Assembly: GCA_000743035.1 (NCBI GenBank)
Contig: CP008936.1
Coordinates: 1,290,001 to 1,322,000 of the forward strand
Origin: Candidatus Paracaedimonas acanthamoebae
Lineage (GTDB): Bacteria > Pseudomonadota > Alphaproteobacteria > Caedimonadales > Caedimonadaceae
Reading direction: 5' to 3'
DNA length: 32,000 nucleotides
Position numbers and translations under genes: made by a program. Positions 1,832 through 21,162 of this stretch are shown here, piece by piece. Position 1 is the first letter of the stretch; each line of letters opens with the position of its first letter. Below the pieces are notes generated by a model, which saw only the letters and a list, made by a program, of their open reading frames with translations, ran no database searches and had not been told where the DNA came from.

Positions 1832-1906
1832 TGGTGGGCGATGAGGGATTTGAACCCCCGACCCTCTCGGTGTAAACGAGACGCTCTCCCGCTGAGCTAA
1901 TCGCCC
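1832..1906 (-). tRNA. tRNA-Val (anticodon UAC)
   Basis: The reverse complement reads GGGCGATTAGCTCAGCGGGAGAGCGTCTCGTTTACACCGAGAGGGTCGGGGGTTCAAATCCCTCATCGCCCACCA. The acceptor stem is GGGCGAT/ATCGCCC and the D-loop is AGCTCAGCGGGAGAGC. The anticodon stem TCTCG/CGAGA encloses the loop TTTACAC (anticodon TAC). The T-loop is GGTTCAAATCC and the 3' CCA is encoded. Confidence 0.93.
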
Positions 1907-2946: not shown

Positions 2947-3092
2947 GATGCCACCCTATAGTTAATTGTTGTTATGTAGAATCAGTCAAATCGTAATTTA
3001 GGGCGGTGTTATAAGGTGATTTCTTCAACAAGTCAAACTGATAGATAAGAAAATAAAGAAGACAATCTTTAAAAAACAGGCTTTAAATATTA

Positions 3093-3155
3093 GGCTGTGT
3101 GCACTTATCTGAGCTAGAGGACAATAGATCATCAGCTATAATTCCTGCTATATGC
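3093..3155 (+). mobile_element. Relic left end (solo terminal inverted repeat plus ~40 nt) of the same IS5-family element found at 4112-4952
   Basis: GGCTGTGTGCACTTATCTGA at 3093 matches the reverse complement of the intact IS right end (GGTTCTGTGCACTTATGTAA) at 16 of 20 positions by my hand alignment. It shares CTTATCT.AG with the intact left end and is preceded by TA like the intact copy. Weaker similarity continues for about 40 nt into the IS interior and is then lost. Confidence 0.55.
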
Positions 3156-3422
3156 TATACACCACTTTTCTTCTCATTAAACTCCTCCCTTTTTGGGAGT
3201 AATCTTACAATATTTTGAGCCTCATATGTCAGGCGTTAAGCCTGGCCGTCACCTTGACCTTTGTGGAGAGATGTATTACAAATGTGTTATACTAACTCCC
3301 AAGTTTAATTCTTGCATACTATATCCTGTAAATAGCTCAAGAAAACGTATCCATGGAATGGTTTGTTCAATTTATTCTTACATTTTATATTATTATAAAC
3401 TATAATAAAAAGGAGTAATCTT

Positions 3423-4112
3423 ATGAAAATAAGTGAAATTATATTCATTGTTTCTTTTCTAAATTTTTGTATAAGTGGGAATCTCCAAGCTACTGATTCT
3501 TTACTTATCGAGACTTTTCCTGATGAAACATTGGTAAATATTGCTTCTTATGTTACAAAGCTCAGAGATAATAGGAACTTATCCTTCGTCTCAAAAAAAT
3601 GGAAGAATATAGCTAACGATGACCAAGTTATAAGATATATTAAGACTGATCTTTCCCACAGAGACGCGGAACACCAAGATCATGTAAGGCTCAAAAAACT
3701 TCTTCAAACGTTTCCGGCTTGTGTAAAAATCCTAGACTTAAGTTTCGTTGATCTTGATAAGTTAAGAGAGAATTTCTATCTTTCTCATTTGCCCCCTTCC
3801 CTGATAGAGCTTCATCTGGGTAATACGTATGGGTGTGAGGAGGATGTAAGTGATTCCGATATAATACACGTCGTTGCCAGCTGCCCCTACCTTCAAGTCC
3901 TTCATCTTGCCTCTTTAAACAAAGTAACAAAAGAGGGCTTATGTGCTCTACGTTCCCTCACAAGTCTGAAAAAGTTAGAGCTTTATTTTATGCTTCATAT
4001 TAAGTCAGAAGACGTAGCTGAGTGCCTTCCTAGTTTACAAGAGTGGAATATTAATGGAACAACGTTTCTGCGCTCTGGACAAGAAACCCATAAAAAGTCA
4101 AAGAATAACTAG
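3423..4112 (+). CDS. Eukaryote-like F-box / leucine-rich-repeat protein (candidate secreted effector)
   Basis: The SD AGGAG lies 6-7 nt upstream of the ATG. The N-terminus is hydrophobic. FPDETLVNIASYVTKLRDNRNLSFVSKKWKNIANDDQV fits the F-box consensus (LPDEIL..I.SYL......L..VSKRW..L..D). Downstream are FBXL-type repeats (ILDLSFVDLDKL, LIELHLGNTYGC, CPYLQVLHLASLNKVTKEGLCAL, LTSLKKLELY). Confidence 0.75.
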   Translation: MKISEIIFIVSFLNFCISGNLQATDSLLIETFPDETLVNIASYVTKLRDNRNLSFVSKKWKNIANDDQVIRYIKTDLSHRDAEHQDHVRLKKLLQTFPACVKILDLSFVDLDKLRENFYLSHLPPSLIELHLGNTYGCEEDVSDSDIIHVVASCPYLQVLHLASLNKVTKEGLCALRSLTSLKKLELYFMLHIKSEDVAECLPSLQEWNINGTTFLRSGQETHKKSKNN

Positions 4113-4952
4113 GTTCTTGTTCTTATCTAAGCCATAGGATAGTAGAAGCATAAGCAAGGAATCCCATAAAAGAAGAAGCTTTTTTGTCAAAGCGAGAGAA
4201 GACTCTTCTGAAGTATTTGATCTTATTAAAGAAACACTCGATAAGGTGTCTTTCTTTATAAAGATGTTCATCATACTCTCTTGGCTCTTTTCTGGAAGCA
4301 CGTGGAGGAATAACCGGGGTACAACTCTGTCGTTTAATCTGCTCAATAAAGGTATTTGAATCATATGCTTTGTCGGCGATAATGTTGGAATTCTTCATCC
4401 CCTCAACAAGATAGGGTGCTTGGGTGATATCATGTCTATGTCCACCTGTCAGGGAAAACCTCAGGGCTTGTCCTAAAGCATCGACAACAACATGAATTTT
4501 TGTTGTAAAACCACCCTTACTGCGACCCAAAGCTTGTTCTTCTTGAGAACCCTTTTTATATCCTGCAGCACAAGGATGAGCTCTGACAATACTGGCATCA
4601 AGCACATGGTTTTCTCCATCTTTATCTGGAGTAAGGTATTGTAAGATAAAATTCCAAAAATCTTTACAGCACCAAACTGCATAACGCTTGTGAACACTGC
4701 GCCATTTTCCGTAATAGGTAGGCAGCTCCCGCCATTGGGATCCAGTCCTCATTATATAGTAAATACCTTCGAAAAAACGTCTCGTTTTAGTTTCATTCTT
4801 GACGCGAATCTGTCTCATCCTCTTGAGAATTTCATAAATCTTTGACCACGCTTCTGGCTTGATGTAATACTTATACATGGTAATGCTCCTTTAAATTACA
4901 ATAGAACATTACCACTTTTTTTGATTTAATTTTTACATAAGTGCACAGAACC
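4112..4952 (-). mobile_element. Intact IS5-family insertion sequence (IS427-like group), 841 bp
   Basis: The imperfect terminal inverted repeats are GGTTCTTGTTCTTATCTAAG (4112 onward) and the reverse complement of 4931-4952, GGTTCTGTGCACTTATGTAAAA. By hand they match at about 16 of 21 positions with one gap. TA flanks both ends (4110-4111 and 4953-4954). A single DDE transposase ORF fills the element. Confidence 0.85.
4123..4878 (-). CDS. IS5-family DDE transposase
   Basis: The 251-aa ORF has the N-terminal region typical of IS5/IS427-group transposases (FEGIYYIMRTGSQWRELPTYYGKWRSVHKRYAVW). A DDE-domain-like remainder follows (LDASIVRAHPCAAG, ADKAYDS, YKERHLIECFFNKIKYFRRVFSRFDK). Confidence 0.9.
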   Translation of the reverse strand: MYKYYIKPEAWSKIYEILKRMRQIRVKNETKTRRFFEGIYYIMRTGSQWRELPTYYGKWRSVHKRYAVWCCKDFWNFILQYLTPDKDGENHVLDASIVRAHPCAAGYKKGSQEEQALGRSKGGFTTKIHVVVDALGQALRFSLTGGHRHDITQAPYLVEGMKNSNIIADKAYDSNTFIEQIKRQSCTPVIPPRASRKEPREYDEHLYKERHLIECFFNKIKYFRRVFSRFDKKASSFMGFLAYASTILWLR

Positions 4953-5154
4953 TAATAATTTTCAAAGTGTTAAATCTTACCTATGCATTCATTTCATAGG
5001 AAGAGCACTTTAAGTATGATTAAATTATATTTGAACTTATTGAGTGATACTCATAATTTTAAGAAATTGAGTTGAATTAAAAATTTAATTTAAACTCAAT
5101 ATTGTCGTGAAGTTTTTTCTAACTAACAAAAATTTCACGTCTCCCTGTCAACTT

Positions 5155-5179
5155 GGTCAGAAGATTTTATCTTCTGACC
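5155..5179. terminator. Perfect 11-bp stem / 3-nt loop hairpin, one copy of a repeated terminator-like module
   Basis: GGTCAGAAGAT-TTT-ATCTTCTGACC. Near-identical copies with similar flanks occur at 7671-7694, and in degenerate form at about 6413-6439. Confidence 0.5.
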
Positions 5180-5430
5180 TCCTTTTGAGAAAAAATTTCT
5201 GCTACTTATGATATTTCAATACTTAAATTTTTAAAATAAGGTAACTATTAATACTCTTCCTTCTTATCAGCAAATGCTATCTATTCCTTGATATAAATCA
5301 CCTAAAATTTTGATGCCTTATTACAAATTGAGTTGGCAGCCTCGCTTAAAGTTTGTTGCTTTCCTGAGCTAAGGTTTGTATGTAAGTGGGTACATCGTTA
5401 ACCTGTGCGTTTAGAAGAAATAAAATCATA

Positions 5431-6303
5431 ATGAAGATTACTAAATCAGTTATAAGTTATATTCTTACTTTTTTTTTAATTGGCACTATTGCAATCATTT
5501 GTTTGGCAACAAGCGATATATCTTCAGTAAGAAGGTTTAGAAAATCTAGCGACCCTTTTTCAATCAATTTCAAACAACAACCGTCACGTAAAGGCTTAGA
5601 TGATCTTAGAATCTCAGGCAGTAGTTACCTCTCTCAACTAGCAATAAAAAAAGCCTTAGCTAACATCCCTTTTCCTGTATATATCGTTGATTTACGATCA
5701 GAGCCCCATTATTTCATCAATGGATTACCTGAGCGTTGGTATGGGTATAAAAAAACTGAAGTTACTCAAATTCCACAAGAAACTAAAAATGTTGACATAC
5801 TGTATCTTTTACGTCGGCTCGTAAAAACAGGCAAAATCACCCATTCATCCCAGGATACTAAATCTGAAAAAGAAATCGTCGAAGCACTTGGTTATTCCTA
5901 TGTAAACATTAATCAGACACGCCACGATGTTAACGATAGAGATTTTGTCGATTCATTCGTGAATTTAGTTAATCACATTCCCCCTAAAAGTTGGATCCAT
6001 TTTCACTGCGCAGCTGGGCGAGGACGCACAACAACTGCAATGGTGATGTTTGATATTTTAAAAAATAGAGATGTTCCTCTTGAAGATATCGTAGCACGCC
6101 AACATCTCATAGGAGGACAAGATTTGTTTAATACAACAGTGTGGGAAAATGGAACATATGCAAAAGAGAGGCTAGAAAAAAGAAAGAATTTTATTATTCT
6201 TTTTTATCAATATGTACATGATCCCAAAGGTTTAGGTCATATATCTTGGACAGAATGGTCGAAGGATAAAATTATAAACCAACGCTCATGTCTTACGTCT
6301 TAG
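5431..6303 (+). CDS. Membrane-anchored CX5R phosphatase, PTP-like (cysteine) phytase family candidate, copy 1
   Basis: The active-site signature HCAAGRGRTT fits HCxxGxGR(T/S), as in the PTP-like phytase signature HCEAGVGRT of Selenomonas PhyA. The N-terminal TM segment is ISYILTFFLIGTIAIICLA. The track ORF begins at GTG 5386, but ATG 5431 (MKITKS) is more plausible and matches the paralog. Confidence 0.75.
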   Translation: MKITKSVISYILTFFLIGTIAIICLATSDISSVRRFRKSSDPFSINFKQQPSRKGLDDLRISGSSYLSQLAIKKALANIPFPVYIVDLRSEPHYFINGLPERWYGYKKTEVTQIPQETKNVDILYLLRRLVKTGKITHSSQDTKSEKEIVEALGYSYVNINQTRHDVNDRDFVDSFVNLVNHIPPKSWIHFHCAAGRGRTTTAMVMFDILKNRDVPLEDIVARQHLIGGQDLFNTTVWENGTYAKERLEKRKNFIILFYQYVHDPKGLGHISWTEWSKDKIINQRSCLTS

Positions 6304-6458
6304 ACAACTAAAATATAATATTAACTGTTTAAATCATAACATAAACATTCGCCTCAAGCTTAATTCGAAGAGGACATTTTTTGATATATAAAAATTTAGT
6401 TCTTCCTATCAACTTGAACAGAAAATTCCATCATCTGACTTTTTTCGTAGAGAACCCA

Positions 6459-6552
6459 CTTATTAAATGTCAAAAGACCTTTTTCTTCCAAGAGAGTTTT
6501 TAGTTCCCCAGATTCATAAATTCCTCGCACCATCCCAACTCTACCAATAATC
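6459..6552 (-). pseudogene. Relic of the 3' end of grxD left by the tandem duplication
   Basis: The minus-strand translation IIGRVGMVRGIYESGELKTLLEEKGLLTFNK aligns with the C-terminus of the intact Grx4 at 7712-7810 (FIGGADIIREMYESGELKTLLEEKGLVTVNN). There is no upstream remainder and no start codon. Confidence 0.8.
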
Positions 6553-6680
6553 TTAATATAAATTATTAAAGTAATTCTTCAATTTTATAGATCTTGTATA
6601 AAGTTTATTGCTTTCTTAACCTAAGGCTTGTATGGAGTAAGAACATTTTTAACCTAGGTATTAGAAGAAATATAATTAAA

Positions 6681-7556
6681 ATGAAAATAACTAGATCAAT
6701 TATAAATTATATTCTTACTTTTGCTTTAATTAGCATTATTGCAATCATTTATTTCATAGCAAACGATATGTCTTCCGTAAAAAGGTTTAGAAAATCTAGC
6801 GACGATTTTTCAATCGATTTCAAGCAACAACCGTCGCGTAAAGGATTAGATAATCTTAGAATCTCAGGCAGCAGCGCACCATCACAGCCCGTAATAAAAA
6901 AAGCCTTAGCTAACATTCCTTTTCCTATATATATCGTTGATTTACGATCGGAACCTCATTATTTCATCAATGGGTTACCTGAGTATTGGTATGGGTATAA
7001 AAGAACTAAATTTACTCAAATTCCACAAGATATTATAAATGTTAGCCCAAAATATCTTTTACGTCGGCTAGTAAAAACAGGTAAAATCACCCATTCAGCC
7101 CAGGATACTAAATCTGAAAAAGAAATTATCGAAGAGCTTGGTTATTTCTATCTCCACATTAATCAGAAGCGCCACCATGTGGATGATAGAGAGTTTGTTG
7201 ATTCATTAGTGAATTTAGTTAATCAAATTCCCCCTAAAAGTTGGATCCATTTTCACTGCGCAGCTGGGCGAGGACGCACAACAACTGCAATGGTGATGTT
7301 TGATATTTTAAAAAATAGAGACGTTCCTCTTGAAGATATCGTAGCACGTCAACATCTCTTAGGTGGCGAGAATTTGCTTGATACGACAATATGGAAAAAA
7401 AATAGCACATACTCAAAAGAGAGGCTAGAAAAAAGAAAGAATTTTATTATTCTTTTTTATCAATATGTACATGATCCCAAAGGTTTAGGTCACATATCTT
7501 GGACAGAATGGTCAAAGGATAAAATTATAAACCAACGCTCATGCCTTACCTCTTAG
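6681..7556 (+). CDS. Membrane-anchored CX5R phosphatase, PTP-like (cysteine) phytase family candidate, copy 2
   Basis: This is a paralog of 5431-6303 with the same HCAAGRGRTT signature and the TM segment INYILTFALISIIAIIYFIA. The track ORF begins at TTG 6594, but ATG 6681 (MKITRS) is more plausible. Confidence 0.75.
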   Translation: MKITRSIINYILTFALISIIAIIYFIANDMSSVKRFRKSSDDFSIDFKQQPSRKGLDNLRISGSSAPSQPVIKKALANIPFPIYIVDLRSEPHYFINGLPEYWYGYKRTKFTQIPQDIINVSPKYLLRRLVKTGKITHSAQDTKSEKEIIEELGYFYLHINQKRHHVDDREFVDSLVNLVNQIPPKSWIHFHCAAGRGRTTTAMVMFDILKNRDVPLEDIVARQHLLGGENLLDTTIWKKNSTYSKERLEKRKNFIILFYQYVHDPKGLGHISWTEWSKDKIINQRSCLTS

Positions 7557-7670
7557 GTACTTATCGACAACTAAAAATAATATGGATCCCTAATTAACCT
7601 TAACGTAAAAATATTCGGCTCAAGTGGTAAGCTTTTTGACCAATCAAAATTTAGATTTTCTTATTAGCTT

Positions 7671-7711: not shown

Positions 7712-8044
7712 TCAATTATTAACTGTCACAAGGCCTTTTTCTTCTAAAAGAGTTTTTAATTCTCCAGATTCATACATTTCTCGTATAATATCTGCCCCCC
7801 CAATAAATTCGCCTTGAATATAAAGTTGTGGGATGGTTGGCCAATTTGTAAAATCTTTTATTCCTTGGCGAATTTCAGGATCTTCAAGTACATTCACATC
7901 ATGAAATTCGGCACCTAAGCGAGTTAAAATCTGAGCAACTCCGCCTGAAAAACCACAAAGAGGCGCTCTCTTCGTGCCCTTCATATACAAAACGATAGGA
8001 TATGTCTTAAGGTGTGTTTGAATTGTCTCAAAAATAACTGTCAT
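7712..8044 (-). CDS. grxD: Grx4-family monothiol glutaredoxin
   Basis: 110 aa with the CGFS active site (KRAPLCGFSGG). WPTIPQLYIQGEFIGGADI is typical of monothiol glutaredoxins. Confidence 0.93.
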   Translation of the reverse strand: MTVIFETIQTHLKTYPIVLYMKGTKRAPLCGFSGGVAQILTRLGAEFHDVNVLEDPEIRQGIKDFTNWPTIPQLYIQGEFIGGADIIREMYESGELKTLLEEKGLVTVNN

Positions 8045-8055
8045 CTATTGCTCCT

Positions 8056-8295
8056 TTATGCAGAGTGTGGCACTTGTGTTTTAAGGCTTAAAGCGTGAAG
8101 CTCAGCTCCCATTCGTCCCTGAAGCGCTTTATAAACCATTTGATGCTGTTGTATCTTTGTTTTCCCTTCAAATGAAGATGCGGTCACAATCGCAGCATAA
8201 TGATCTTGGTCTGCAACAAGCGATTTTAATTGCACATCAGCATCAGGAATCTCTTGCTTAATTAAATGAATAATATCTTCAGCAATCATAGGCAT
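8056..8295 (-). CDS. bolA: BolA-family protein
   Basis: 79 aa of BolA/IbaG size with matching motifs (DHYAAIVTASSFEGKTKIQQHQMVYKAL, LHALSLKT). It lies immediately upstream of grxD, and BolA-Grx4 is the classic partner pair. Confidence 0.85.
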   Translation of the reverse strand: MPMIAEDIIHLIKQEIPDADVQLKSLVADQDHYAAIVTASSFEGKTKIQQHQMVYKALQGRMGAELHALSLKTQVPHSA

Positions 8296-8635
8296 TGAAT
8301 ATTCTCTTCGTCATAATAAAACTTGCAGAAAATTAACTCTTTCCTTCATAAAATGCAAGACTTGTCCATTAAATAGCTTCAGCAAGGCCTATAACACTAT
8401 TGTGACATGTAATAAACCACCGAGTTCAATAATTTCATAATAATTTAATTATTTATTAAGTTATTAGAAAGAAAATAAATAAAAAAACACGTATATTTTC
8501 AATTATTTAAAATTTTGTTTAATATTTTTTTCGTCGTTTACCGCTTTTTAATTAAATTCCTTTTAAATTAAATTAGACAATAAGAATAGAAAAACAGCAA
8601 CCCACGTTTAGGTTTGCGATATAACAAGGGAGATA

Positions 8636-10534
8636 ATGATGAGAGAAAGTATACAACATGTTATAGATAATGTCCGCCCGCCACGCGTACAAATCACGTA
8701 TGATGTTGAAATTGGTAATGCGGTTGAATCACGGGAGCTCCCATTTGTTCTCGGATTGATGGCTGATCTATCTGGTGCCTCTGAAGTTGCACGCCCTCCA
8801 CTAAAAGAACGTAAATTCGTCGATATCGCAAGCGATATGATCCCAGATGTCATGGCTGCCATCCGCCCAAGAGTAAATATTCTCGTTCCGAATAAATTAG
8901 GCGGCGACGCTAAAGAACTAAATGTTGATTTAACATTTCTTACAATGGATGACTTTGAACCTCTCCAAATTGTTGGACAAACTCCTGTTCTTAATGATCT
9001 TTATACAACAAGAACTCGACTTAATGATTTGCTCGGAAAACTAGAAGGTAATGAAGCCCTAAATAAAGCTATGGATGAAATCATGACCAATAAAGGGGCA
9101 AATACTGATGTCCCAAGTTTGATTCAATCAACTCAAATGGTCAGAGATTCTTCTCAAGAAAACTATGCTGGTATATTAATTAATGAATTTATCACACTTG
9201 TCAGTAAAGCAGATAAAATGCCTGCGGATTGTGTTGCCTTAGTTCAACAAAAAATTGCTGAACTTGACATCACGGTTAGTGCTCAACTTAATGAAATTTT
9301 GCACCACCCAGATTACCAAAAACTTGAAGGAAGCTGGAGAGGTCTATGGCTTTTAATGACAACAACAACTCAAAATGCCCACATTAAAATTCGACTTCTC
9401 AATGTAACGAAGACAGAGCTTATTCTCGACTTGGAAAAAGCTTGTGAATTTGATCAAAGCCAGTTGTTTAAAAAGGTTTATGAAGAAGAATACGGTACTT
9501 TTGGTGGTTCACCATACTCTTTCTTAATGGGTGATTTTGAGTTTGGCCGTAATCCGCAAGAGATAGAGTTATTAACAAAAATTTCTCAAGTTGCTGCTGC
9601 TGCTCATGCTCCGTTCATTGCCGCTGCAAATCCAAACTTATTTGACCTTATCAGTTTTTCTGAACTAGGCCACCCAAGAGATTTGTCCCGCATTTTTGAC
9701 TCAACAGAGCTTGGCAAATGGGCTTCATTCCGTGAGACTGAAGACTCACGTTACGTTGCTATTACCCTTCCCCATATCTTGATGCGCCTACCTTATGGCG
9801 GTGAAAATGGCCAAATGGTGATGGGGTTGAACTTTATTGAAGATGTTGATGGAACGGACAATTCCAAATTTTGTTGGGGAAGTTCAGCATGGGGACTTGC
9901 ACAAAGAATTCTTCATGCAGCAACAGAGTATGGTTGGCCAGCTGCAATCCGTGGTGTTGAAGGTGGTGGTATGGTTGAGGATCTTCCTTACTATACCTTT
10001 AAGACAACAGATGGTGATATTGCTCTTAAATGCCCTACTGAGATCTCAATTACTGATCGACGTGAGAAAGAGTTGAGTGATCTTGGATTTATTGGACTGA
10101 TTCATTGCAAAAACCGTGACTATGCAGCTTTTTTTGGCTCACAAACGTGCCAGAAACCTAAGCTTTACAACTTGGATGAAGCAAATTCAAATGCGCGACT
10201 TTCTGCTAGATTGTCTTATATTTTAGCAGCTTCACGATTTGCTCACTATATCAAGGTGATTATGCGTGACAAAATCGGCAGCTTCATGTCTAGAGCAGAT
10301 GTCGAGAACTATCTCAATAACTGGATTGCCTCTTACGTCCTTTTGACAGACGAAGCAAGCCAACCCGTGAAAGCGCGTTATCCTCTTCGTGAAGCACGCG
10401 TCGATGTGTATGACATCCCTGGGCAGCCTGGAAGTTATAGAGCCGTTGTTTTCTTAAGACCTCATTTCCAAATGGAAGACTTAACAGCATCCATTCGTCT
10501 TGTGGCTGCCCTACCAAAGCGGGCTGCAGGCTGA
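8636..10534 (+). CDS. tssBC: Fused type VI secretion contractile sheath protein: TssB (VipA)-like N-terminus plus TssC (VipB)-like C-terminus in one 632-aa frame
   Basis: SD AAGGGAG is at 8626-8632. Residues 1 to about 150 carry TssB hallmarks (PPRVQITYDVEIG, ELPFVLGLMADLSG, KERKFVDI, LTFLTMDDFEP). From about residue 160 onward there are TssC hallmarks (ILHHPDYQKLEGSWRGL, EEEYGTFGGSPYSFLMGDFEF, AAAAHAPFIAAA, EDSRYVAITLPHILMRLPYG, SRFAHYIKVIMRDKIGSF, PGQPGSYRAVVFLRPHFQ). There is no stop or frame change between the two parts. Confidence 0.88.
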   Translation: MMRESIQHVIDNVRPPRVQITYDVEIGNAVESRELPFVLGLMADLSGASEVARPPLKERKFVDIASDMIPDVMAAIRPRVNILVPNKLGGDAKELNVDLTFLTMDDFEPLQIVGQTPVLNDLYTTRTRLNDLLGKLEGNEALNKAMDEIMTNKGANTDVPSLIQSTQMVRDSSQENYAGILINEFITLVSKADKMPADCVALVQQKIAELDITVSAQLNEILHHPDYQKLEGSWRGLWLLMTTTTQNAHIKIRLLNVTKTELILDLEKACEFDQSQLFKKVYEEEYGTFGGSPYSFLMGDFEFGRNPQEIELLTKISQVAAAAHAPFIAAANPNLFDLISFSELGHPRDLSRIFDSTELGKWASFRETEDSRYVAITLPHILMRLPYGGENGQMVMGLNFIEDVDGTDNSKFCWGSSAWGLAQRILHAATEYGWPAAIRGVEGGGMVEDLPYYTFKTTDGDIALKCPTEISITDRREKELSDLGFIGLIHCKNRDYAAFFGSQTCQKPKLYNLDEANSNARLSARLSYILAASRFAHYIKVIMRDKIGSFMSRADVENYLNNWIASYVLLTDEASQPVKARYPLREARVDVYDIPGQPGSYRAVVFLRPHFQMEDLTASIRLVAALPKRAAG

Positions 10535-10586
10535 GGGTAAACAGAAATATAAACGAAAAAATAGAAAGAAATTATAGGAGGTAACA

Positions 10587-11171
10587 ATGTCAACTGGAAT
10601 AGGAAACTTCTCAAGCGTTTCAGCATCCGCAGAGAACTGGGCTAGAGGCGCAACTCAACCTGATCAAATGGTCCCTTCAGAAGCTTATCGTAATGTAACG
10701 GCAACGCCAGAATTTATGATTAAGATTGATAGTGTCGATACGAAATCAACTTTAGAGAATTTTACAGACCATGTGCAATTATTTCACTTCAATTATCGAA
10801 TTAGCCGTCTTACAAACCCTAATGCTGCTGATCAGCTCTACACATCGGCACGCGTTATCATTGAAGACCCTGTGATGGTCATCCCTAACGGTAACTTTGC
10901 ACCTATCATCTTAAATAAACTCATGAAAGGTGATAAAATTGAGACGATTCACATTGCACGCTTAGCCAACATTGCTCAAGTAAATGTGGTTGTCCAAGAA
11001 TTAACTTTTACCAACAACTACTTCCAAACGTATGAACCGAAGTATGATACCGTGGTTGTTACTTTCAGACCTGCCACTATTGAGAATAAAATCAACAGTT
11101 ACGATCAAGGTGGTACAAATACGGGTTCAACTTCAGTGAAGTTTGACTTTACTACAGGACAATTAGTATAA
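10587..11171 (+). CDS. hcp: Divergent Hcp (TssD)-like tube protein with an N-terminal extension of about 42 aa
   Basis: A strong SD AGGAGG lies 5 nt upstream of the ATG. FMIKIDSVDTKSTLENFTDHVQLFHFNYRIS resembles the Hcp N-terminal strands (FLKIDGIKGES...H...IEVLSFSWG.S). The C-terminus VVVTFRPATIENKINSYDQGGTNTGSTSVKFDFTTGQ resembles the Hcp terminal strands. Its position between the sheath gene and tssE supports the call. Confidence 0.65.
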   Translation: MSTGIGNFSSVSASAENWARGATQPDQMVPSEAYRNVTATPEFMIKIDSVDTKSTLENFTDHVQLFHFNYRISRLTNPNAADQLYTSARVIIEDPVMVIPNGNFAPIILNKLMKGDKIETIHIARLANIAQVNVVVQELTFTNNYFQTYEPKYDTVVVTFRPATIENKINSYDQGGTNTGSTSVKFDFTTGQLV

Positions 11172-11178
11172 TTAAATA

Positions 11179-11685
11179 ATGAGTAAACGCCAAAATTTAG
11201 AACAATCGACGAAACAAACAGGGGTGCTCGCGCCTCTGTTTGATCGTTTAACAGATCTTGAACCTCATTTAATTGCAGAGCCGAGTTCTTATCAAATGCT
11301 TGGCCCTCAAGAGTTAAAAGAATCTGTACAACGAGAACTTGAACTAGTTCTTAATACGCGCCCTACCGTGCAGCGCCCTCCTGAAGATGGTCATGGGGAA
11401 TTTATTTCTGACTTTGCACTTCCGCAATTTTTTGGGTTAAGAGATTTTTCATGGTTTGACGGAGCAAGCGATCTTGGAAGACGCGCTATTGGAACAGAAA
11501 TCGAGCGTGTTGTTACCTATTATGAACCGCGCCTTAAGAATGTAAAAGCTCGAGTCAATAAACACCCTCAAGATCCTTTAGCTCTTATTGTTGAAGTCAC
11601 AGGGGACTTAAAAATCGGCGAGGTCCTTGAGCGCTTTACGTTTCCGATTACGATTCAAAATTTACTTCAACGGAATGAGCTATAA
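11179..11685 (+). CDS. tssE: TssE-like baseplate wedge protein (gp25/GPW family)
   Basis: 168 aa. LAPLFDRLTDLEP and ELKESVQRELELVLNTRPT match the conserved TssE N-terminal motifs (LLDRL.D, V.RDLE.LLNTR). The start is 7 nt after the hcp stop, suggesting translational coupling. Confidence 0.78.
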   Translation: MSKRQNLEQSTKQTGVLAPLFDRLTDLEPHLIAEPSSYQMLGPQELKESVQRELELVLNTRPTVQRPPEDGHGEFISDFALPQFFGLRDFSWFDGASDLGRRAIGTEIERVVTYYEPRLKNVKARVNKHPQDPLALIVEVTGDLKIGEVLERFTFPITIQNLLQRNEL

Positions 11686-11768: not shown

Positions 11769-13763
11769 ATGAGCTTATTTTCTCTTAAATCAAATTTCCA
11801 ACCTGCCGGCGATCAGCCTGAGGCTATTCAGCAATTGCTCGCGGGACTTCAAAAAAACGAGCGTAATCAAGTCCTTCTTGGCGTCACAGGCTCAGGAAAA
11901 ACATTTACAATGGCCCATGTTATTGCCACCAGTAATCGTCCAGCGCTCGTTTTAGCTCCGAATAAGACACTTGCTGCCCAGCTATATGGAGAAATGAAAG
12001 AATTCTTTCCTGATAATGCTATTGAGTATTTTGTTTCGTATTATGATTATTATCAGCCTGAAGCTTATGTCCCTCGATCAGATACTTATATTGAAAAAGA
12101 AGCAACAATTAACGAGCAAATTGATCGCATGCGTCACTCTGCAACAAGAGCTCTTCTTGAAAGACGCGATGTCATTATTGTTGCAAGCGTTTCTTGTATT
12201 TATGGTATAGGCGCTGTTGAAGATTATGGAAGGATGATTATAACCTTACGTCCTAATGAGATGGTTAATCAACGAAGTTTGTTACAGCAGCTTGTTGAAC
12301 TTCAATATAAGCGAAATGATATCAATTTCCAGCGCGGAACCTTTCGAGTAAGTGGTGATACAATTGAAATATTTCCCTCTCACCTCGAAGATCGAGCATG
12401 GCGACTTTCGTTATTTGGCGATGAAATTGAAGATATTCATGAAATTGATCCTCTTACAGGCGAGAAAATTGGCCTTCTTTCGGAAGTACGTATCTTTGCA
12501 AATAGTCACTATGTCACACCTAAACCTACTATTATGCAAGCAATCAAGAAGATTCAAGGAGAGCTAAAAGAGCGACTAATTGAATTCGAACAACAAGGGA
12601 AACTTCTTGAAGCTCAGAGAATACGAGAGAGAACAAGCTTTGACCTTGAAATGCTTGAAACAACGGGTTTTTGTTCAGGAATTGAAAATTATTCACGGTA
12701 TCTTACAGGTCGTCAACCTGGCGCACCACCTCCCACCCTTTTCGAATATTTACCCTCTGACGCTCTCTTAATTGTCGATGAAAGCCACGTTGCAATTCCG
12801 CAGTTGAAAGGAATGTATCGCGGGGACTCTGTCCGAAAAGGAACGCTCGCTGAATACGGCTTTCGGCTCCCTTCTTGCCGAGATAATCGACCTTTAAAAT
12901 TTGAAGAATGGGATACAATGCGTCCTCAAACAGTTTTTGTTTCTGCGACACCGGGTCCCTGGGAACTTGAGCAAACCCAAGGCATCTTTATTGAACAAAT
13001 CATTCGCCCAACAGGCCTCGTTGACCCCATTTGTATTATCAGGCCAACAACTCACCAAGTGGATGATCTGATTGCAGAATGCGTTGACGTCACTAAAAAA
13101 GGTTACCGCTCTCTTGTTACCACTTTAACAAAGAAAATGGCTGAAGCTTTAGCTGAGTATCTTAACGAGGCAGGCGTTAAAGCCCGCTATTTGCATTCTG
13201 ATATCGATACCCTTGAGCGGATTGAAATTATACGTGACTTGCGATTAGGTATCTTTGATGTTCTGATTGGTATTAACCTTCTACGGGAAGGATTAGACAT
13301 CCCTGAATGTGCTTTAGTTGCCATTTTAGATGCAGATAAAGAAGGGTATTTAAGATCGAGAACTTCTCTGATCCAGACCATCGGCCGTGCAGCACGTAAT
13401 GTAGAAGGCCGAGCAATTTTGTATGCCGATACCATGACTGGCTCTTTAAAGGCAGCCCTTGAAGAAAGTGGGCGACGGCGTGAAAAGCAGCAAGCTTATA
13501 ATGCCAAACATGGAATCACCCCTGAAAGCGTTAAAAAATCAATTGGAGACGTCCTCTCCAGCGTTTACGAGCGAGACCATACCACCATCACATTACGTGA
13601 AGAAACGCAGCATCTTGTGGGCAAGGATCTCGAAAAATATAAGAAAGACCTTGAGAAAAGAATGCTCCTCAATGCGGCTAATCTTGAATTTGAAGAAGCT
13701 GCAAGGCTAAGGGACGAACTTCGCAAACTAGAAGCTCGAGAACTGGAATTGCTCAACTCTTAA
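11769..13763 (+). CDS. uvrB: Excinuclease ABC subunit B
   Basis: 664 aa with Walker A ([12 protein letters not shown]), [17 protein letters not shown], helicase C motifs and the C-terminal UVR domain ([11 protein letters not shown]). Confidence 0.97.
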
Positions 13764-13841
13764 CTCTTCCTTTAAGACATTTTTAATAAATTGTAGCTTA
13801 GTGTAATATTTATAGATCACAAACTTTTGAAAAGTTTAACG

Positions 13842-14666
13842 ATGGATAATATAAAACACTACAAACATCCAATAATTTTTTATTTCTTATCAATTTCTAT
13901 TACCTGGTTATTTTGGTTTATTGCAGCTTATTTGAGCCATATAAATTCCCCCAATAATCATTATAGTTATATGTCTGGCATATTAGAAATAATCGGTTTA
14001 ATTAGCCCTATGGCAATCGCTTTTACAATGATGTATTTAGATCCTCATTTACGTCATGACCTACTGAGTAGGATTTTCAGTGTTTCTAATGTAAAATTTT
14101 CATATATCTTGATAGCATGTTTTCTTATGCCTATAAGCATTGTCTTGGCACAAGGAATATCAATTTTTTTTGGGTATAGTATAGACCAATTTAAATTATC
14201 CAGCGTAACGTCTTTTTCATTTAGTCTATTTTCAGCATGGTTCATGCTTTTTCTTGCCCCAATATTAGAAGAATTGGCATGGCACTCTTATGGCACAGAT
14301 TGCCTGCGTGCACGATTTAATCTTTTTACCACATCCATAATATTTGGGATGTTTTGGGTGCTTTGGCATTTGCCGCTATCATTCATTAAAGGTTACTACC
14401 ATAGCAATACACTTAAAACTGGTTGGCTTTATTTATTAAACTTTTCATTGAGCCTTTTCCCTTTTGTCTTGTTGATGAATTGGTTATATTATAAGGCAAA
14501 TAGAAATATTTTAATTGCCGTTGTTTTTCATATTACTGCTGGTTTTTTTAATGAAATTTTTTCAACTCACCCTGACAGCAAGATCATGCAAACCGCGATT
14601 TTAATCATTCTCTCATTCTTTATAATTTATAAAGAACAAGACTTATTTTTTAAGAGAGAGTTCTAA
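13842..14666 (+). CDS. CPBP-family intramembrane protease (CAAX/Abi-like)
   Basis: A polytopic membrane ORF carrying the three CPBP motifs in order: LEELAWHSYG (EExxxR-like), FGMFWVLWHLP (FxxxH) and VVFHITAGFFNE (HxxxN). The track start is TTG 13827, and ATG 13842 is the alternative. Confidence 0.7.
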   Translation: MDNIKHYKHPIIFYFLSISITWLFWFIAAYLSHINSPNNHYSYMSGILEIIGLISPMAIAFTMMYLDPHLRHDLLSRIFSVSNVKFSYILIACFLMPISIVLAQGISIFFGYSIDQFKLSSVTSFSFSLFSAWFMLFLAPILEELAWHSYGTDCLRARFNLFTTSIIFGMFWVLWHLPLSFIKGYYHSNTLKTGWLYLLNFSLSLFPFVLLMNWLYYKANRNILIAVVFHITAGFFNEIFSTHPDSKIMQTAILIILSFFIIYKEQDLFFKREF

Positions 14667-15004
14667 TTTCAAGCATCAATGCTCTGCACACAATAATCAT
14701 TGCGTAATAACTGGATTTTACTTTTAGGGATAATTTAACTAAAAATACGACGATAATCAGGTGCCTCATAAAACTAAAAAATACCAAAATGGAAAAATAT
14801 CCGTATTTAAACTTGGAAGACAGTTAAAATAAAAATATCATGCTTACAGTTGATAAGGTTTAAAGTTAAATAACACTTATTTTAAAACAGGAAACAAATA
14901 GTATATTTATAAATACTTAAATATTTTACTTATCATAAATACTGATACTTATTGTATTAATATTATTATATTAACACTTTGATTTTTAAAGAGTTATAAA
15001 AGTA

Positions 15005-19719: not shown

Positions 19720-19813
19720 TTTAATGATAATCAACAATCCCAACATTATGCGCCCCTATGCCTGTTTCCCATGAAAAACAAAGACACTATTGATTATTTA
19801 CGCGCAAACTTAT

Positions 19814-20281
19814 CTATCCTTTTCGGTCTCCTTTTAAAATCTCAAGCTTGGTTCCAGGATTTAATTTTTGCCGTAGTTTATAAATACTTGAAGACTGATT
19901 AAGAGCTTGCATAATTTCAAGAGAACTTGGGAACTTTGCATCGTTTCTTTGCTCCCAAATTTGTTGCGCAAGATTGCGATTCTTGAAAAATTTTATCGCT
20001 AAAGTTTGAGATGAAGAGTTACCAGCCTTGTCACTCTCTTTACTTTCAAGATCTTTACCTTTATCTTGCGAACTTTTTTAAAGTTGTATTGAGGATAAAG
20101 AACTCGATGAAAAGGATTATATTTCTAACTTTACTTTTGTTTGAGCACTATTAGAGGACTCACTTGCCCGTTCGTGTCGCTGGTTTTCAATATCTCGATA
20201 TAAAGATTTCAAATTTTCATGTTCATAATTAGGCCATAAAACCATAGGCACCTCATGACTTGATGTTGCTTGTTCTTGTTT
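19814..20281 (-). pseudogene. In-frame continuation of ORF 20282-20740, interrupted by TAA codons (decaying 3' part of a secreted-protein gene)
   Basis: Hand translation of the minus strand in the same frame as 20282-20740 stays otherwise open down to the TAG at 19814-19816. The only interruptions are TAA at 20282-20284, 20117-20119 and 20078-20080. Confidence 0.5.
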
Positions 20282-20740
20282 TTACCTCAATTCACGTAGT
20301 TCACTATCAATCTTTTTTGTTTCTGCAGAAAATTGAGTTACCAAATTTTTAAATGATCTTAAATTATTCTCTATGGTTGAGATCTTTTCATCTGCTTTTG
20401 GATTTTCTAGAAGTGCAATAGCGCACTTATAAACTTCCTTTTCTAGAAAATTTTGTTTTGCTTTTCTTAGATCTAAATCTGTTGAAATCATATAATAATC
20501 TAAACAAGTTGTTATAAAATCTACAACAACTGTACGAACATTTACTTCAGAATCAAAAGAGCAATTTACTAATATTCGCCTTGCCTGTTCTAGACTTAAT
20601 TCACTTTCATTTTTTTTACTGCTTGTAACGGATAAACTATTTTTTAGAGAGTAATCTTCGTGACTTGGTTTTTCCGAAGCCAATATTTGCTGAGAAAAGA
20701 ATAATATTAAGGTGATATAAAGACTTATGTAATTTAACAT
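20282..20740 (-). CDS. Hypothetical secreted protein (possibly the truncated 5' part of a longer ancestral gene)
   Basis: 152-aa ORF with a signal-peptide-like N-terminus (MLNYISLYITLILFFSQQILASE). I recognise no family. Confidence 0.5.
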   Translation of the reverse strand: MLNYISLYITLILFFSQQILASEKPSHEDYSLKNSLSVTSSKKNESELSLEQARRILVNCSFDSEVNVRTVVVDFITTCLDYYMISTDLDLRKAKQNFLEKEVYKCAIALLENPKADEKISTIENNLRSFKNLVTQFSAETKKIDSELRELR

Positions 20741-20916
20741 GGTTATGTTTTCCAGAGATATTAATACCTAAATGTCAAATATTTACCATTATTTGCTCAT
20801 TAAAGCAACAAAACACCTATTCGAAATCTAAAGGTTAAAGATGACTAAAAAAAACTTAGGATGACTCTTTTATACTTTTAAAGTAAGATACAGGTAAAAT
20901 AATTTAGGTTTCAATC

Positions 20917-21162
20917 ATGACAAATGAACTTTCTAATCTTCCTTTTGAAGAAGCTATGCGTGAATTAGAAGCAATCGTGCGTAAGCTTGAAGAAGGCCGT
21001 CTTCCTCTTGATGAAGCCATTAAGAATTATGAAAGAGGTGCTGTTTTACGGACTCATTGCGAGACCTTGCTGAAAGAGGCCAAACTGAAGGTGGATCAAA
21101 TCGTTGTTTCGCCTGATGGCACACTGTCTTTAGAACGTTCAACCCTTGAAGATGAACTTTAA
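20917..21162 (+). CDS. xseB: Exodeoxyribonuclease VII small subunit
   Basis: 81 aa. FEEAMRELEAIVRKLEEGRLPLDEAIKNYERG is the typical XseB helix-hairpin, and the gene is followed by ispA as in many bacteria. Confidence 0.92.
   Translation: MTNELSNLPFEEAMRELEAIVRKLEEGRLPLDEAIKNYERGAVLRTHCETLLKEAKLKVDQIVVSPDGTLSLERSTLEDEL

What the first reader, a model, noticed from the sequence alone, without database searches (positions are those of the whole stretch)
8636..11685. Orphan three-gene T6SS-like contractile core (sheath, tube, gp25 wedge) stranded between housekeeping genes
Seen directly: three co-directional ORFs separated by gaps of 52 nt and 7 nt. They encode a TssB+TssC sheath protein, an Hcp-like tube protein and a TssE-like wedge protein (motifs are listed under features). 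The order B-C-hcp-E is the canonical start of many T6SS-i clusters. One example is P. aeruginosa H1, where tssB1, tssC1, hcp1, (tagJ1), tssE1, tssF1, tssG1, clpV1 and vgrG1 follow each other. Here the series stops after tssE. uvrB starts 83 nt later, and bolA-grxD lie divergently upstream across a 340-nt AT-rich spacer. No tssA, tssF, tssG, tssK, tssJ/L/M, vgrG, PAAR or clpV candidate appears anywhere in the 32 kb. No IS or tRNA borders the module, and by eye its composition matches the neighbouring genes. Inference: there are three possibilities. The apparatus may be scattered across the genome, which would be unusual for T6SS. This lineage may run a strongly reduced or rewired contractile system. 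Or the module may be a remnant. In an intracellular symbiont a T6SS-like machine could serve host-membrane interaction or vacuole escape, as in Francisella, but that is speculation.
Basis: partly seen in the sequence, partly recalled or inferred. Interest (0 to 1): 0.88.

Follow-up and report, generated by a model that had tools for sequence, protein, structure and literature searches.

The report
Sheath-tube-wedge module of a dispersed T6SS
The three genes are real and strongly conserved, but they are one piece of a type VI secretion system whose genes are known to be scattered around the genome in Holosporales, the group of protist endosymbionts this sequence most likely comes from, so this is an ordinary member of a published arrangement with a fused sheath gene and a hard-to-recognise tube gene.

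Summary
Window 8636-11685 holds three co-directional intact genes. The first is a single 632-aa protein that is TssB fused to TssC. The second is a 194-aa protein. The third is a TssE baseplate wedge protein. The middle protein fails the Pfam and NCBIfam Hcp models, but profile searches, profile-profile comparison and a predicted structure all identify it as a divergent Hcp tube protein with a disordered N-terminal extension of about 40 residues. No other T6SS gene lies in the 32 kb.

The "orphan" reading is only locally true. The closest genomes are the "Caedibacter sp. 38-128" and "37-49" MAGs, which group with Holosporales (Alphaproteobacteria). Published work (Midha et al. [quoted passage not shown] dN/dS of 0.02-0.08, no higher than uvrB for the sheath and tube genes, rules out a decaying remnant. 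Natural TssB-TssC fusions were noted in 2013. I could not show directly that the other modules exist in this genome. Verdict: a new member of a known kind, of modest interest.

The parts
8636..10534 (+). tssBC: a single 632-aa contractile sheath protein. The TssB part (about residues 2-156) is joined directly to the TssC part (about residues 162-631).
   Evidence: Pfam VipA 11-157, VipB 205-506, VipB_2 515-626. TIGR03358 and TIGR03355 score above cutoff. Residues 2-156 match 9n4v_B TssB 1-155 (E 5e-43) and residues 162-631 match 9n4v_A TssC 23-492 (E 5e-201). The GGGAG ribosome-binding site lies upstream of the start. dN/dS is 0.017-0.027.
10587..11171 (+). hcp (tssD): a divergent 194-aa inner-tube protein. 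Residues 1 to about 40 form a poorly conserved, disordered extension and residues 42-194 form the Hcp beta-barrel.
   Evidence: The family profile hits solved Hcps at E 7.5e-10 to 1e-8. hhalign against syntenic canonical Hcps gives 99.0% probability, E 4.9e-18. The AlphaFold2 model has pLDDT 84.2. Foldseek's top hits are Hcp1 4w64 (E 1.9e-12), 8yun (TM up to 0.91) and 1y12. A perfect AGGAGG Shine-Dalgarno sequence precedes the start. dN/dS is 0.030-0.033.
11179..11685 (+). tssE: a 168-aa gp25-like baseplate wedge subunit.
   Evidence: TIGR03357 scores 77.5 bits against a cutoff of 53.2, and PF04965 gives E 7.8e-12. dN/dS is 0.070-0.084.
8296..8635 (+). AT-rich divergent control region between bolA and tssBC. 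It contains a block (about 8528-8585) that is nearly invariant in four genomes.
   Evidence: Alignment of the window with L004, L001 and L005, set against dS of 0.65-1.1 in the adjacent gene. A promoter or operator function is inferred. The consensus promoter scan was not above chance.

Best explanation
The three genes are the sheath-tube-wedge module of a type VI secretion system of the proteobacterial T6SS-i kind. The host bacterium is close to the MAGs 'Caedibacter sp. 38-128' and '37-49', which group with Holosporales (Alphaproteobacteria). In these families the core genes are published as dispersed over four or more loci, not held in one cluster. Shown here: the fused TssBC protein carries all sheath domains; the next gene encodes an Hcp-fold tube protein; the third encodes TssE. 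All three are intact and under strong purifying selection, and the same module recurs in different genomic neighbourhoods in related genomes. Inferred from established knowledge of T6SS: TssE sits in a TssEFGK-VgrG baseplate docked to a TssJLM membrane complex. Hcp hexamers stack on VgrG, the single-chain sheath polymerises around them, and contraction expels Hcp, VgrG and effectors. The baseplate, membrane-complex, TssA and VgrG genes needed for this would lie elsewhere in the genome, as published for related families. The fusion fixes TssB and TssC at one copy each in a single chain. It also removes the flexible TssB C-terminal tail and TssC N-terminal tail.
For: Domain and family hits support the sheath and TssE assignments. 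Hcp identity rests on profile, profile-profile and fold evidence. The nearest genomes are Caedibacter sp. 38-128 (98% aa identity) and 37-49 (95%), with the same bolA-grxD/uvrB synteny. A relative at 68% identity (L002) carries the same three genes in a completely different neighbourhood. 17 of the 80 genome loci have a fused tssBC, and 14 of these have the divergent Hcp directly downstream; none has TssA/F/G/K/L/M or ClpV within 10 kb. All 120 best database hits are fused proteins, many named Holosporales or Holosporaceae. dN/dS is 0.017-0.033 for the sheath and tube genes against 0.029-0.038 for uvrB. The published dispersed arrangement and low-level transcription are in PMC8163844. The system is described as conserved across Holosporineae in PMC11909080. 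UvrB relatives are Alphaproteobacteria, including Ca. Bealeia.
Against: I could not scan the rest of this genome or of its closest relatives, so the presence of tssF/G/K/L/M/A and vgrG elsewhere is taken from the literature on related families and was not shown here. The published module is written [tssB-tssC-hcp], with separate tssB and tssC and with tssE elsewhere in Ca. Bodocaedibacter, so the match to the published pattern is not exact. My HMMs came from canonical clusters and could miss very divergent components, although Pfam accounted for nearly every large ORF in the window. No expression data exist for this organism.
Confidence: 0.85

Rival explanations
1. The module is a decaying remnant of a lost T6SS and is no longer functional.
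For: No other T6SS gene lies in the 32 kb. The host lineage undergoes genome reduction.
Against: All three reading frames are intact. dN/dS is 0.017-0.084 at dS of 0.35-1.6, as low as or lower than the neighbouring uvrB for the sheath and tube genes. The module is conserved across many genomes. hcp keeps a perfect Shine-Dalgarno sequence, and the upstream non-coding block is conserved.
Confidence: 0.03
2. The lineage runs a strongly reduced or rewired contractile system. It would use the single-chain sheath and the long-N-terminus Hcp but lack some canonical parts, such as ClpV and a recognisable TssJ. It would therefore work differently from textbook T6SS-i, for example with ClpB-dependent recycling or none.
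For: Reviews call the Holosporales T6SS reduced or non-standard. No ClpV/TssH or ClpB appears in the T6SS table of Ca. Bodocaedibacter. The fusion deletes the tails next to the TssC N-terminal helix that ClpV binds in other systems. Hcp is divergent enough to fail the curated models.
Against: The reported absence of Hcp is at least partly a detection failure, as shown here. TssC is 61% identical to a conventional solved sheath. The helix that aligns with the ClpV-binding region is still present. TssK, L, M, A, F, G and VgrG are reported in relatives. This rival overlaps with the best explanation and does not replace it.
Confidence: 0.1
3. The module is a redundant extra copy beside a complete conventional T6SS cluster elsewhere in the same genome.
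For: Many bacteria carry orphan hcp or vgrG islands. I could not inspect the whole genome.
Against: Ca. Bodocaedibacter lists a single tssB, tssC and hcp set. The isolated module is the only form seen in all related loci. Purifying selection is as strong as on housekeeping genes.
Confidence: 0.02

Closest known systems
Dispersed T6SS of Holosporales endosymbionts, as described for Candidatus Bodocaedibacter vickermanii, Paracaedibacteraceae and Caedimonadaceae (Midha et al. 2021, PMC8163844)
   Same: It has a sheath-plus-hcp module isolated among housekeeping genes, with the other core genes reported at separate loci. Its Hcp is divergent and was seen there only as an 'Hcp1-like superfamily' protein. 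The bacteria are intracellular in protists.
   Different: Here tssB and tssC form one reading frame, whereas Ca. Bodocaedibacter has separate genes of 513 and 1455 nt. Here tssE is attached to the module, whereas there it is elsewhere (CPBP_00258).
Canonical clustered T6SS-i, for example the Azotobacter vinelandii sheath-tube complex (PDB 9n4v), P. aeruginosa H1 TssB1/TssC1 (5n8n) and V. cholerae VipA/VipB/Hcp (5mxn)
   Same: The sheath sequence is very similar: 61% identity in the Foldseek alignment to the 9n4v TssC chain, phmmer E 5e-201. The gene order sheath, hcp, tssE is the same. It has the Hcp fold and a gp25-like TssE.
   Different: It is not followed by tssF, tssG, clpV and vgrG. The sheath is a single chain. 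Hcp has an N-terminal extension of about 40 residues and falls below the curated Hcp thresholds.
Natural TssB-TssC (DUF770+DUF877) fusion proteins noted by Lossi et al. 2013 (PMC3597794), e.g. the 622-aa protein of gamma proteobacterium HdN1; also Planctobacterium marinum (locus L081)
   Same: Both sheath subunits are in one polypeptide of about 620-700 aa.
   Different: L081 sits in a canonical cluster with an ordinary Hcp, TssE, TssF, TssG and VgrG and branches apart from the alphaproteobacterial clade, so its fusion is probably independent.
Francisella T6SS-ii (IglA/IglB, PDB 3j9o)
   Same: It is the contractile system of an intracellular bacterium and has no dedicated ClpV.
   Different: IglB is a much weaker match (E 4e-68 against 5e-201 for T6SS-i TssC). 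The window proteins pass the T6SS-i equivalog models.

Membership tests
T6SS-i contractile sheath (TssB/TssC) | TssB domain (PF05591, TIGR03358) above the curated cutoff | tested here: met
   PF05591 E 2.1e-45. TIGR03358 scores 153.6 bits against a cutoff of 97.25.
T6SS-i contractile sheath (TssB/TssC) | TssC domains (PF05943 + PF18945, TIGR03355) above the curated cutoff | tested here: met
   TIGR03355 scores 640.1 bits against a cutoff of 271.5, covering model positions 5-473 of 473. The match to 9n4v_A has E 5e-201.
T6SS-i contractile sheath (TssB/TssC) | Small and large subunits encoded as two separate adjacent genes (the usual state, not a functional requirement) | tested here: not met
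   There is one 632-aa ORF. The same holds in all 120 best homologues and in 17 of the 80 genome loci.
Hcp / TssD tube protein | Match to PF05638 or TIGR03344 above the curated cutoff | tested here: not met
   PF05638 gives E 0.041 and 14.6 bits against a cutoff of 23.5. NCBIfam gives no hit.
Hcp / TssD tube protein | Homology to Hcp detectable at profile level | tested here: met
   The family profile hits PDB Hcps at E 7.5e-10 to 1e-8. hhalign gives 99.0% probability, E 4.9e-18. An HMM of syntenic canonical Hcps hits the window ORF at E 9e-10. 44 of 104 family members touch PF05638.
Hcp / TssD tube protein | Hcp beta-barrel fold | tested here: met
   The AlphaFold2 model has pLDDT 84.2. All top Foldseek PDB hits are Hcp chains, with E down to 1.9e-12 and TM on target of 0.8-0.9.
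Hcp / TssD tube protein | Assembles into hexameric rings and a tube inside the sheath | not testable with these tools
   Needs biochemistry or cryo-EM.
TssE (gp25-like baseplate wedge) | TIGR03357 or PF04965 above cutoff | tested here: met
   TIGR03357 scores 77.5 bits against 53.2. PF04965 scores 45.3 bits against 27.2.
Complete T6SS-i (13 core components) | TssA, F, G, K, L, M, J, VgrG and ClpV encoded with the sheath genes in one cluster | tested here: not met
   None is present in the 32-kb window or within 10 kb of the module in related loci, except a VgrG in L075.
Complete T6SS-i (13 core components) | The remaining core components encoded somewhere in the same genome | not testable with these tools
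The components are reported for related families in PMC8163844.
Holosporales dispersed T6SS | Sheath-hcp module isolated from other T6SS genes and recurring in related genomes | tested here: met
Holosporales dispersed T6SS | Host bacterium belongs to Holosporales (Alphaproteobacteria) | tested here: inconclusive
   The sheath's closest named relatives are Holosporales and Holosporaceae MAGs. UvrB relatives are Alphaproteobacteria, including Ca. Bealeia at 74%. The window has an AddAB-TsaE gene set. NCBI files the nearest MAGs under the gammaproteobacterial genus Caedibacter, which I read as a naming artefact. No rRNA or multi-gene phylogeny was done.
Phage-like extracellular contractile injection systems / tailocins | Phage-type sheath, tube and baseplate genes (e.g. 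Phage_sheath families) without T6SS-specific domains | tested here: not met
   Only T6SS-specific sheath families match. Only T6SS sheaths match in the PDB.

The most novel reading that the evidence does not exclude
The fused single-chain sheath with trimmed tails, the long-N-terminus Hcp family (203 clusters at 50% identity) and the apparent lack of ClpV could together mark a distinct, streamlined sub-type of T6SS-i. This sub-type would be specialised for life inside eukaryotic cells, and its firing and recycling cycle would differ from the textbook one. The literature's claim that Holosporales lack the tube protein would then be a detection artefact that this work corrects.
Probability: 0.25. 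Interest if true: 0.5.

Novelty: new member of a known kind. Interest (0 to 1): 0.3.

Why it matters
The T6SS is the leading candidate for how Holosporales endosymbionts manipulate their protist hosts, yet nothing about it has been tested experimentally. This analysis has two small practical outcomes. First, the tube protein that a recent review lists as apparently missing is present next to the sheath gene across the clade. It is missed only because it fails the curated Hcp models, so a family alignment or HMM would fix annotation. Second, a large part of the clade uses a naturally fused TssB-TssC sheath. That makes it a convenient natural test of whether sheath assembly, and any ClpV-type recycling, tolerates a covalent link between the subunits. 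Neither outcome changes how T6SS is understood.

Tried and rejected
**Exact look-up.**
- An exact look-up of the window's sheath protein found no record.

**Search for the other T6SS modules.**
- I tried to obtain a low-GC TssK with a codon-biased DNA pattern in metagenome contigs.
- I mis-framed the pattern (14 N instead of 13), so the 36 hits were irrelevant.
- The two hits that did carry TssK were not useful. L100 is a canonical cluster with FHA and Ser/Thr kinase genes, not Holosporales-like.
- The corrected pattern found nothing in viral contigs.
The other T6SS modules therefore could not be shown directly in the nearest genomes.

**Fused sheath structure.**
- The AlphaFold2 model of the fused sheath, built from a 10-sequence alignment, was poor (pLDDT 62.6).
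- I use it only to note that the junction region (residues 40-280) is modelled confidently as helices and that Foldseek returns only T6SS sheaths.

**Promoters and terminators.**
- The consensus scan found no more sites than shuffled sequence.
- An 11/12 promoter-like match just before tssE lies in conserved coding sequence and is uninformative.

**Spurious ORFs.**
- A conserved "family" of minus-strand ORFs opposite tssC (my cluster c7, and window 8608-8862) is a shadow of the coding strand and not a gene.

**Literature.**
- Searches found no paper that describes the fusion specifically in Holosporales.
Full report
**1. The observation**

- tssBC runs 8636-10534 (632 aa).
- The tube gene runs 10587-11171 (194 aa), after a 52-nt gap.
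- tssE runs 11179-11685 (168 aa), after a 7-nt gap.
- uvrB starts 83 nt later, at 11769.
- bolA (8056-8295) and grxD (7712-8044) are divergent across a 340-nt AT-rich spacer.

The first protein carries the TssB domain and both TssC domains in one chain.
- Pfam gives VipA at residues 11-157, VipB at 205-506 and VipB_2 at 515-626.
- TIGR03358 scores 153.6 bits and TIGR03355 scores 640.1 bits. Both are far above cutoff.
- Against solved structures, residues 2-156 match TssB of the Azotobacter vinelandii sheath (9n4v_B residues 1-155, E 5e-43).
- Residues 162-631 match its TssC (9n4v_A residues 23-492, E 5e-201).
- The two subunits are therefore joined almost end to end.

The third protein passes the TssE equivalog model, with 77.5 bits against a cutoff of 53.2.

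**2. The middle gene**

The 194-aa protein fails the curated Hcp models. There is no Pfam or NCBIfam hit at default thresholds, and PF05638 reaches only 14.6 bits against a cutoff of 23.5. The word-indexed search found only 8 homologues. A profile search of 1.84 billion cluster representatives found 203 clusters, mostly about 190 aa long.

Four lines of evidence identify it as Hcp.
- A 104-sequence family profile hits solved Hcp proteins at E 7.5e-10 (7fcf), 1.1e-8 (9qpe) and 3.3e-8 (5xeu).
- hhalign against the canonical Hcps that occupy the same position in related clusters gives 99.0% probability and E 4.9e-18. It aligns residues 42-194 to Hcp columns 8-170.
- The AlphaFold2 model has mean pLDDT 84.2, with residues 1 to about 40 disordered.
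- That model retrieves only Hcp chains at the top of a PDB fold search: 4w64 at E 1.9e-12, 8yun with TM up to 0.91, and 1y12.

So it is a divergent Hcp with an N-terminal extension of about 40 residues. The extension is kept in length across the family but poorly conserved in sequence.

**3. The surroundings**

Pfam annotation of all 25 ORFs of 100 aa or more shows housekeeping and accessory genes only. They include a LysR regulator, Nfu, TyrRS, ETF, AccBC, AddAB, TsaE and AcpS.

I built HMMs for TssA, F, G, K, L, M, ClpV and VgrG from canonical clusters among the fetched loci. I labelled them with NCBIfam. They find nothing in any six-frame ORF of 50 aa or more in the window. The small intergenic ORFs hold nothing PAAR-like or TssJ-like.

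**4. Who carries it**

- The closest genomes are the MAGs "Caedibacter sp. 38-128" (98% aa identity, about 87% nucleotide identity) and "37-49" (95%). Both have the same bolA-grxD / module / uvrB synteny.
- All 120 best sheath homologues are fused proteins. Those with names are Holosporales, Holosporaceae or Alphaproteobacteria MAGs.
- Named UvrB relatives are almost all Alphaproteobacteria (one MAG labelled Janthinobacterium aside), including the Holosporales member Ca. Bealeia.
- NCBI files these MAGs under the gammaproteobacterial genus Caedibacter. I take that to be a naming artefact of a polyphyletic genus. I made no rRNA or multi-gene tree.

**5. Is the module an orphan?**

Published work answers this. 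Midha et al. 2021 state that T6SS core genes in Bodocaedibacteraceae, Paracaedibacteraceae and Caedimonadaceae lie at four or more separate locations, in a conserved arrangement. [quoted passage not shown] A 2025 review calls the T6SS conserved in almost all Holosporineae and the best candidate for host interaction. The same review lists the tube protein as apparently missing (PMC11909080).

My own comparison agrees with the dispersed arrangement.
- A relative at 68% identity carries the same three genes in an unrelated neighbourhood (L002).
- Among 80 genome loci, 17 have a fused tssBC, and 14 of these have the divergent Hcp directly downstream.
- None of the 17 has other core genes within 10 kb, apart from a VgrG in L075 and the separate case of Planctobacterium marinum.
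- tssE is attached in the window's own subgroup and in some unfused relatives. It is absent from the module in others and in Ca. Bodocaedibacter.
- A basal alphaproteobacterial MAG (L057) still has a contiguous tssB-tssC-hcp-hcp-tssE-tssF-tssG-clpV-vgrG cluster. This suggests that dispersal came later.

**6. Not a remnant**

| Gene | dN/dS against three relatives |
|---|---|
| tssBC | 0.017-0.027 |
| hcp | 0.030-0.033 |
| tssE | 0.070-0.084 |
| uvrB | 0.029-0.038 |

dS ranged from 0.35 to 1.8 across these comparisons. In addition, hcp has a perfect AGGAGG ribosome-binding site. A block about 60-110 nt upstream of tssBC is nearly invariant in four genomes even though synonymous sites are close to saturation.

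**7. The fusion**

Natural proteins that combine the TssB and TssC domains were already noted in 2013, for example in gamma proteobacterium HdN1 (PMC3597794).

In a neighbour-joining TssC tree the fused forms fall into three groups inside one alphaproteobacterial clade. They are interleaved with unfused forms, and Planctobacterium branches apart. Junction lengths differ between the groups. The window's group has lost the TssB C-terminal tail and the TssC N-terminal tail. The helix that aligns with the ClpV-binding region of other TssC proteins is kept.

Whether there was one fusion followed by fissions, or several independent fusions, is not resolved by this tree.

**8. Mechanism**

Shown here: the identity, integrity, conservation and synteny of the three parts.

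Inferred from established T6SS biology:
- TssE joins a TssFGK-VgrG baseplate on a TssJLM membrane complex.
- Hcp rings stack on VgrG.
- The single-chain sheath polymerises around the tube and contracts to fire it.

No ClpV is listed for Ca. Bodocaedibacter, so sheath recycling may use another unfoldase or may not occur. This is speculation.

**9. Limits**

- I could not show the other modules directly in this genome or in its nearest relatives.
- My one metagenome scan was wasted on a mis-framed pattern.
- The AlphaFold2 model of the fused sheath is of low confidence.

**10. Verdict**

The arrangement is the known one for this clade. The fused sheath and the hidden Hcp are worthwhile annotation points and not a new kind of system.

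Noticed in passing
window 3063-7667: This stretch is an insertion relative to Caedibacter sp. 38-128, where the LysR gene abuts grxD. It carries an F-box-like protein (3423-4112), an IS4/IS5-family DDE transposase (4123-4878, minus strand) and two paralogous PTP-like phytase/phosphatase genes (5386-6303 and 6594-7556). This is eukaryote-directed, effector-like cargo about 1 kb upstream of the T6SS module.
   Followed up: partly
window about 8528-8585: A non-coding block (TTTTTTTCGTCGTTTACCGCTTTTTAATTAAATTCCTTTTAAATTAAATTAGACA) upstream of tssBC is nearly invariant in four genomes whose synonymous sites are close to saturation. It is likely a promoter or operator.
   Followed up: partly
loci L004 and L005 (MKUU01000052, MKUV01000049): NCBI taxonomy places 'Caedibacter sp. 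38-128' in Gammaproteobacteria/Thiotrichales. The sheath and UvrB relatives and the AddAB gene set point instead to Alphaproteobacteria/Holosporales. L006, labelled 'uncultured Thiotrichales', looks affected in the same way.
   Followed up: partly
proteins P0185, P0243, P0274; P0149, P0192, P0202, P0207: The divergent Hcp profile also hits very long proteins that carry six or seven partial Hcp-like stretches (2164, 1032 and 2604 aa). It also hits Hcp proteins of 330-437 aa with extra sequence beyond the Hcp domain, which may be effector-fused Hcps.
   Followed up: no
L033 12130-13556; L039 12105-13451: Two tandem copies of the divergent hcp follow the fused sheath gene, and no tssE is adjacent.
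   Followed up: no
L057 8981-20665: This alphaproteobacterial MAG branches at the base of the clade in the neighbour-joining TssC tree. It keeps a contiguous canonical cluster: tssB, tssC, two weak hcp-like genes, tssE, tssF, tssG, clpV and vgrG. It may represent the state before dispersal.
   Followed up: partly
L081 10001-18683 (Planctobacterium marinum): This gammaproteobacterium has a fused tssBC inside an otherwise canonical cluster with an ordinary Hcp. It is probably an independent fusion.
   Followed up: partly
window 13764-14900: The spot just downstream of uvrB is variable. The window has a CAAX/Rce1-like protease gene (13827-14666). L001 has an unrelated 379-aa minus-strand gene there. 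The region does not align with L004 or L005.
   Followed up: no
window 19720-21145: This is a low-GC stretch (about 0.30). It holds a 152-aa minus-strand ORF (20282-20740) with no Pfam match.
   Followed up: no
window 1832-1906: tRNA-Val (anticodon TAC) on the minus strand is the only tRNA in the window.
   Followed up: yes
window 8608-8862 (minus strand) and antisense of tssC in many loci: Long open frames opposite tssBC recur across genomes and cluster as a false 'family'. They are shadow ORFs of the conserved coding strand and not genes.
   Followed up: yes
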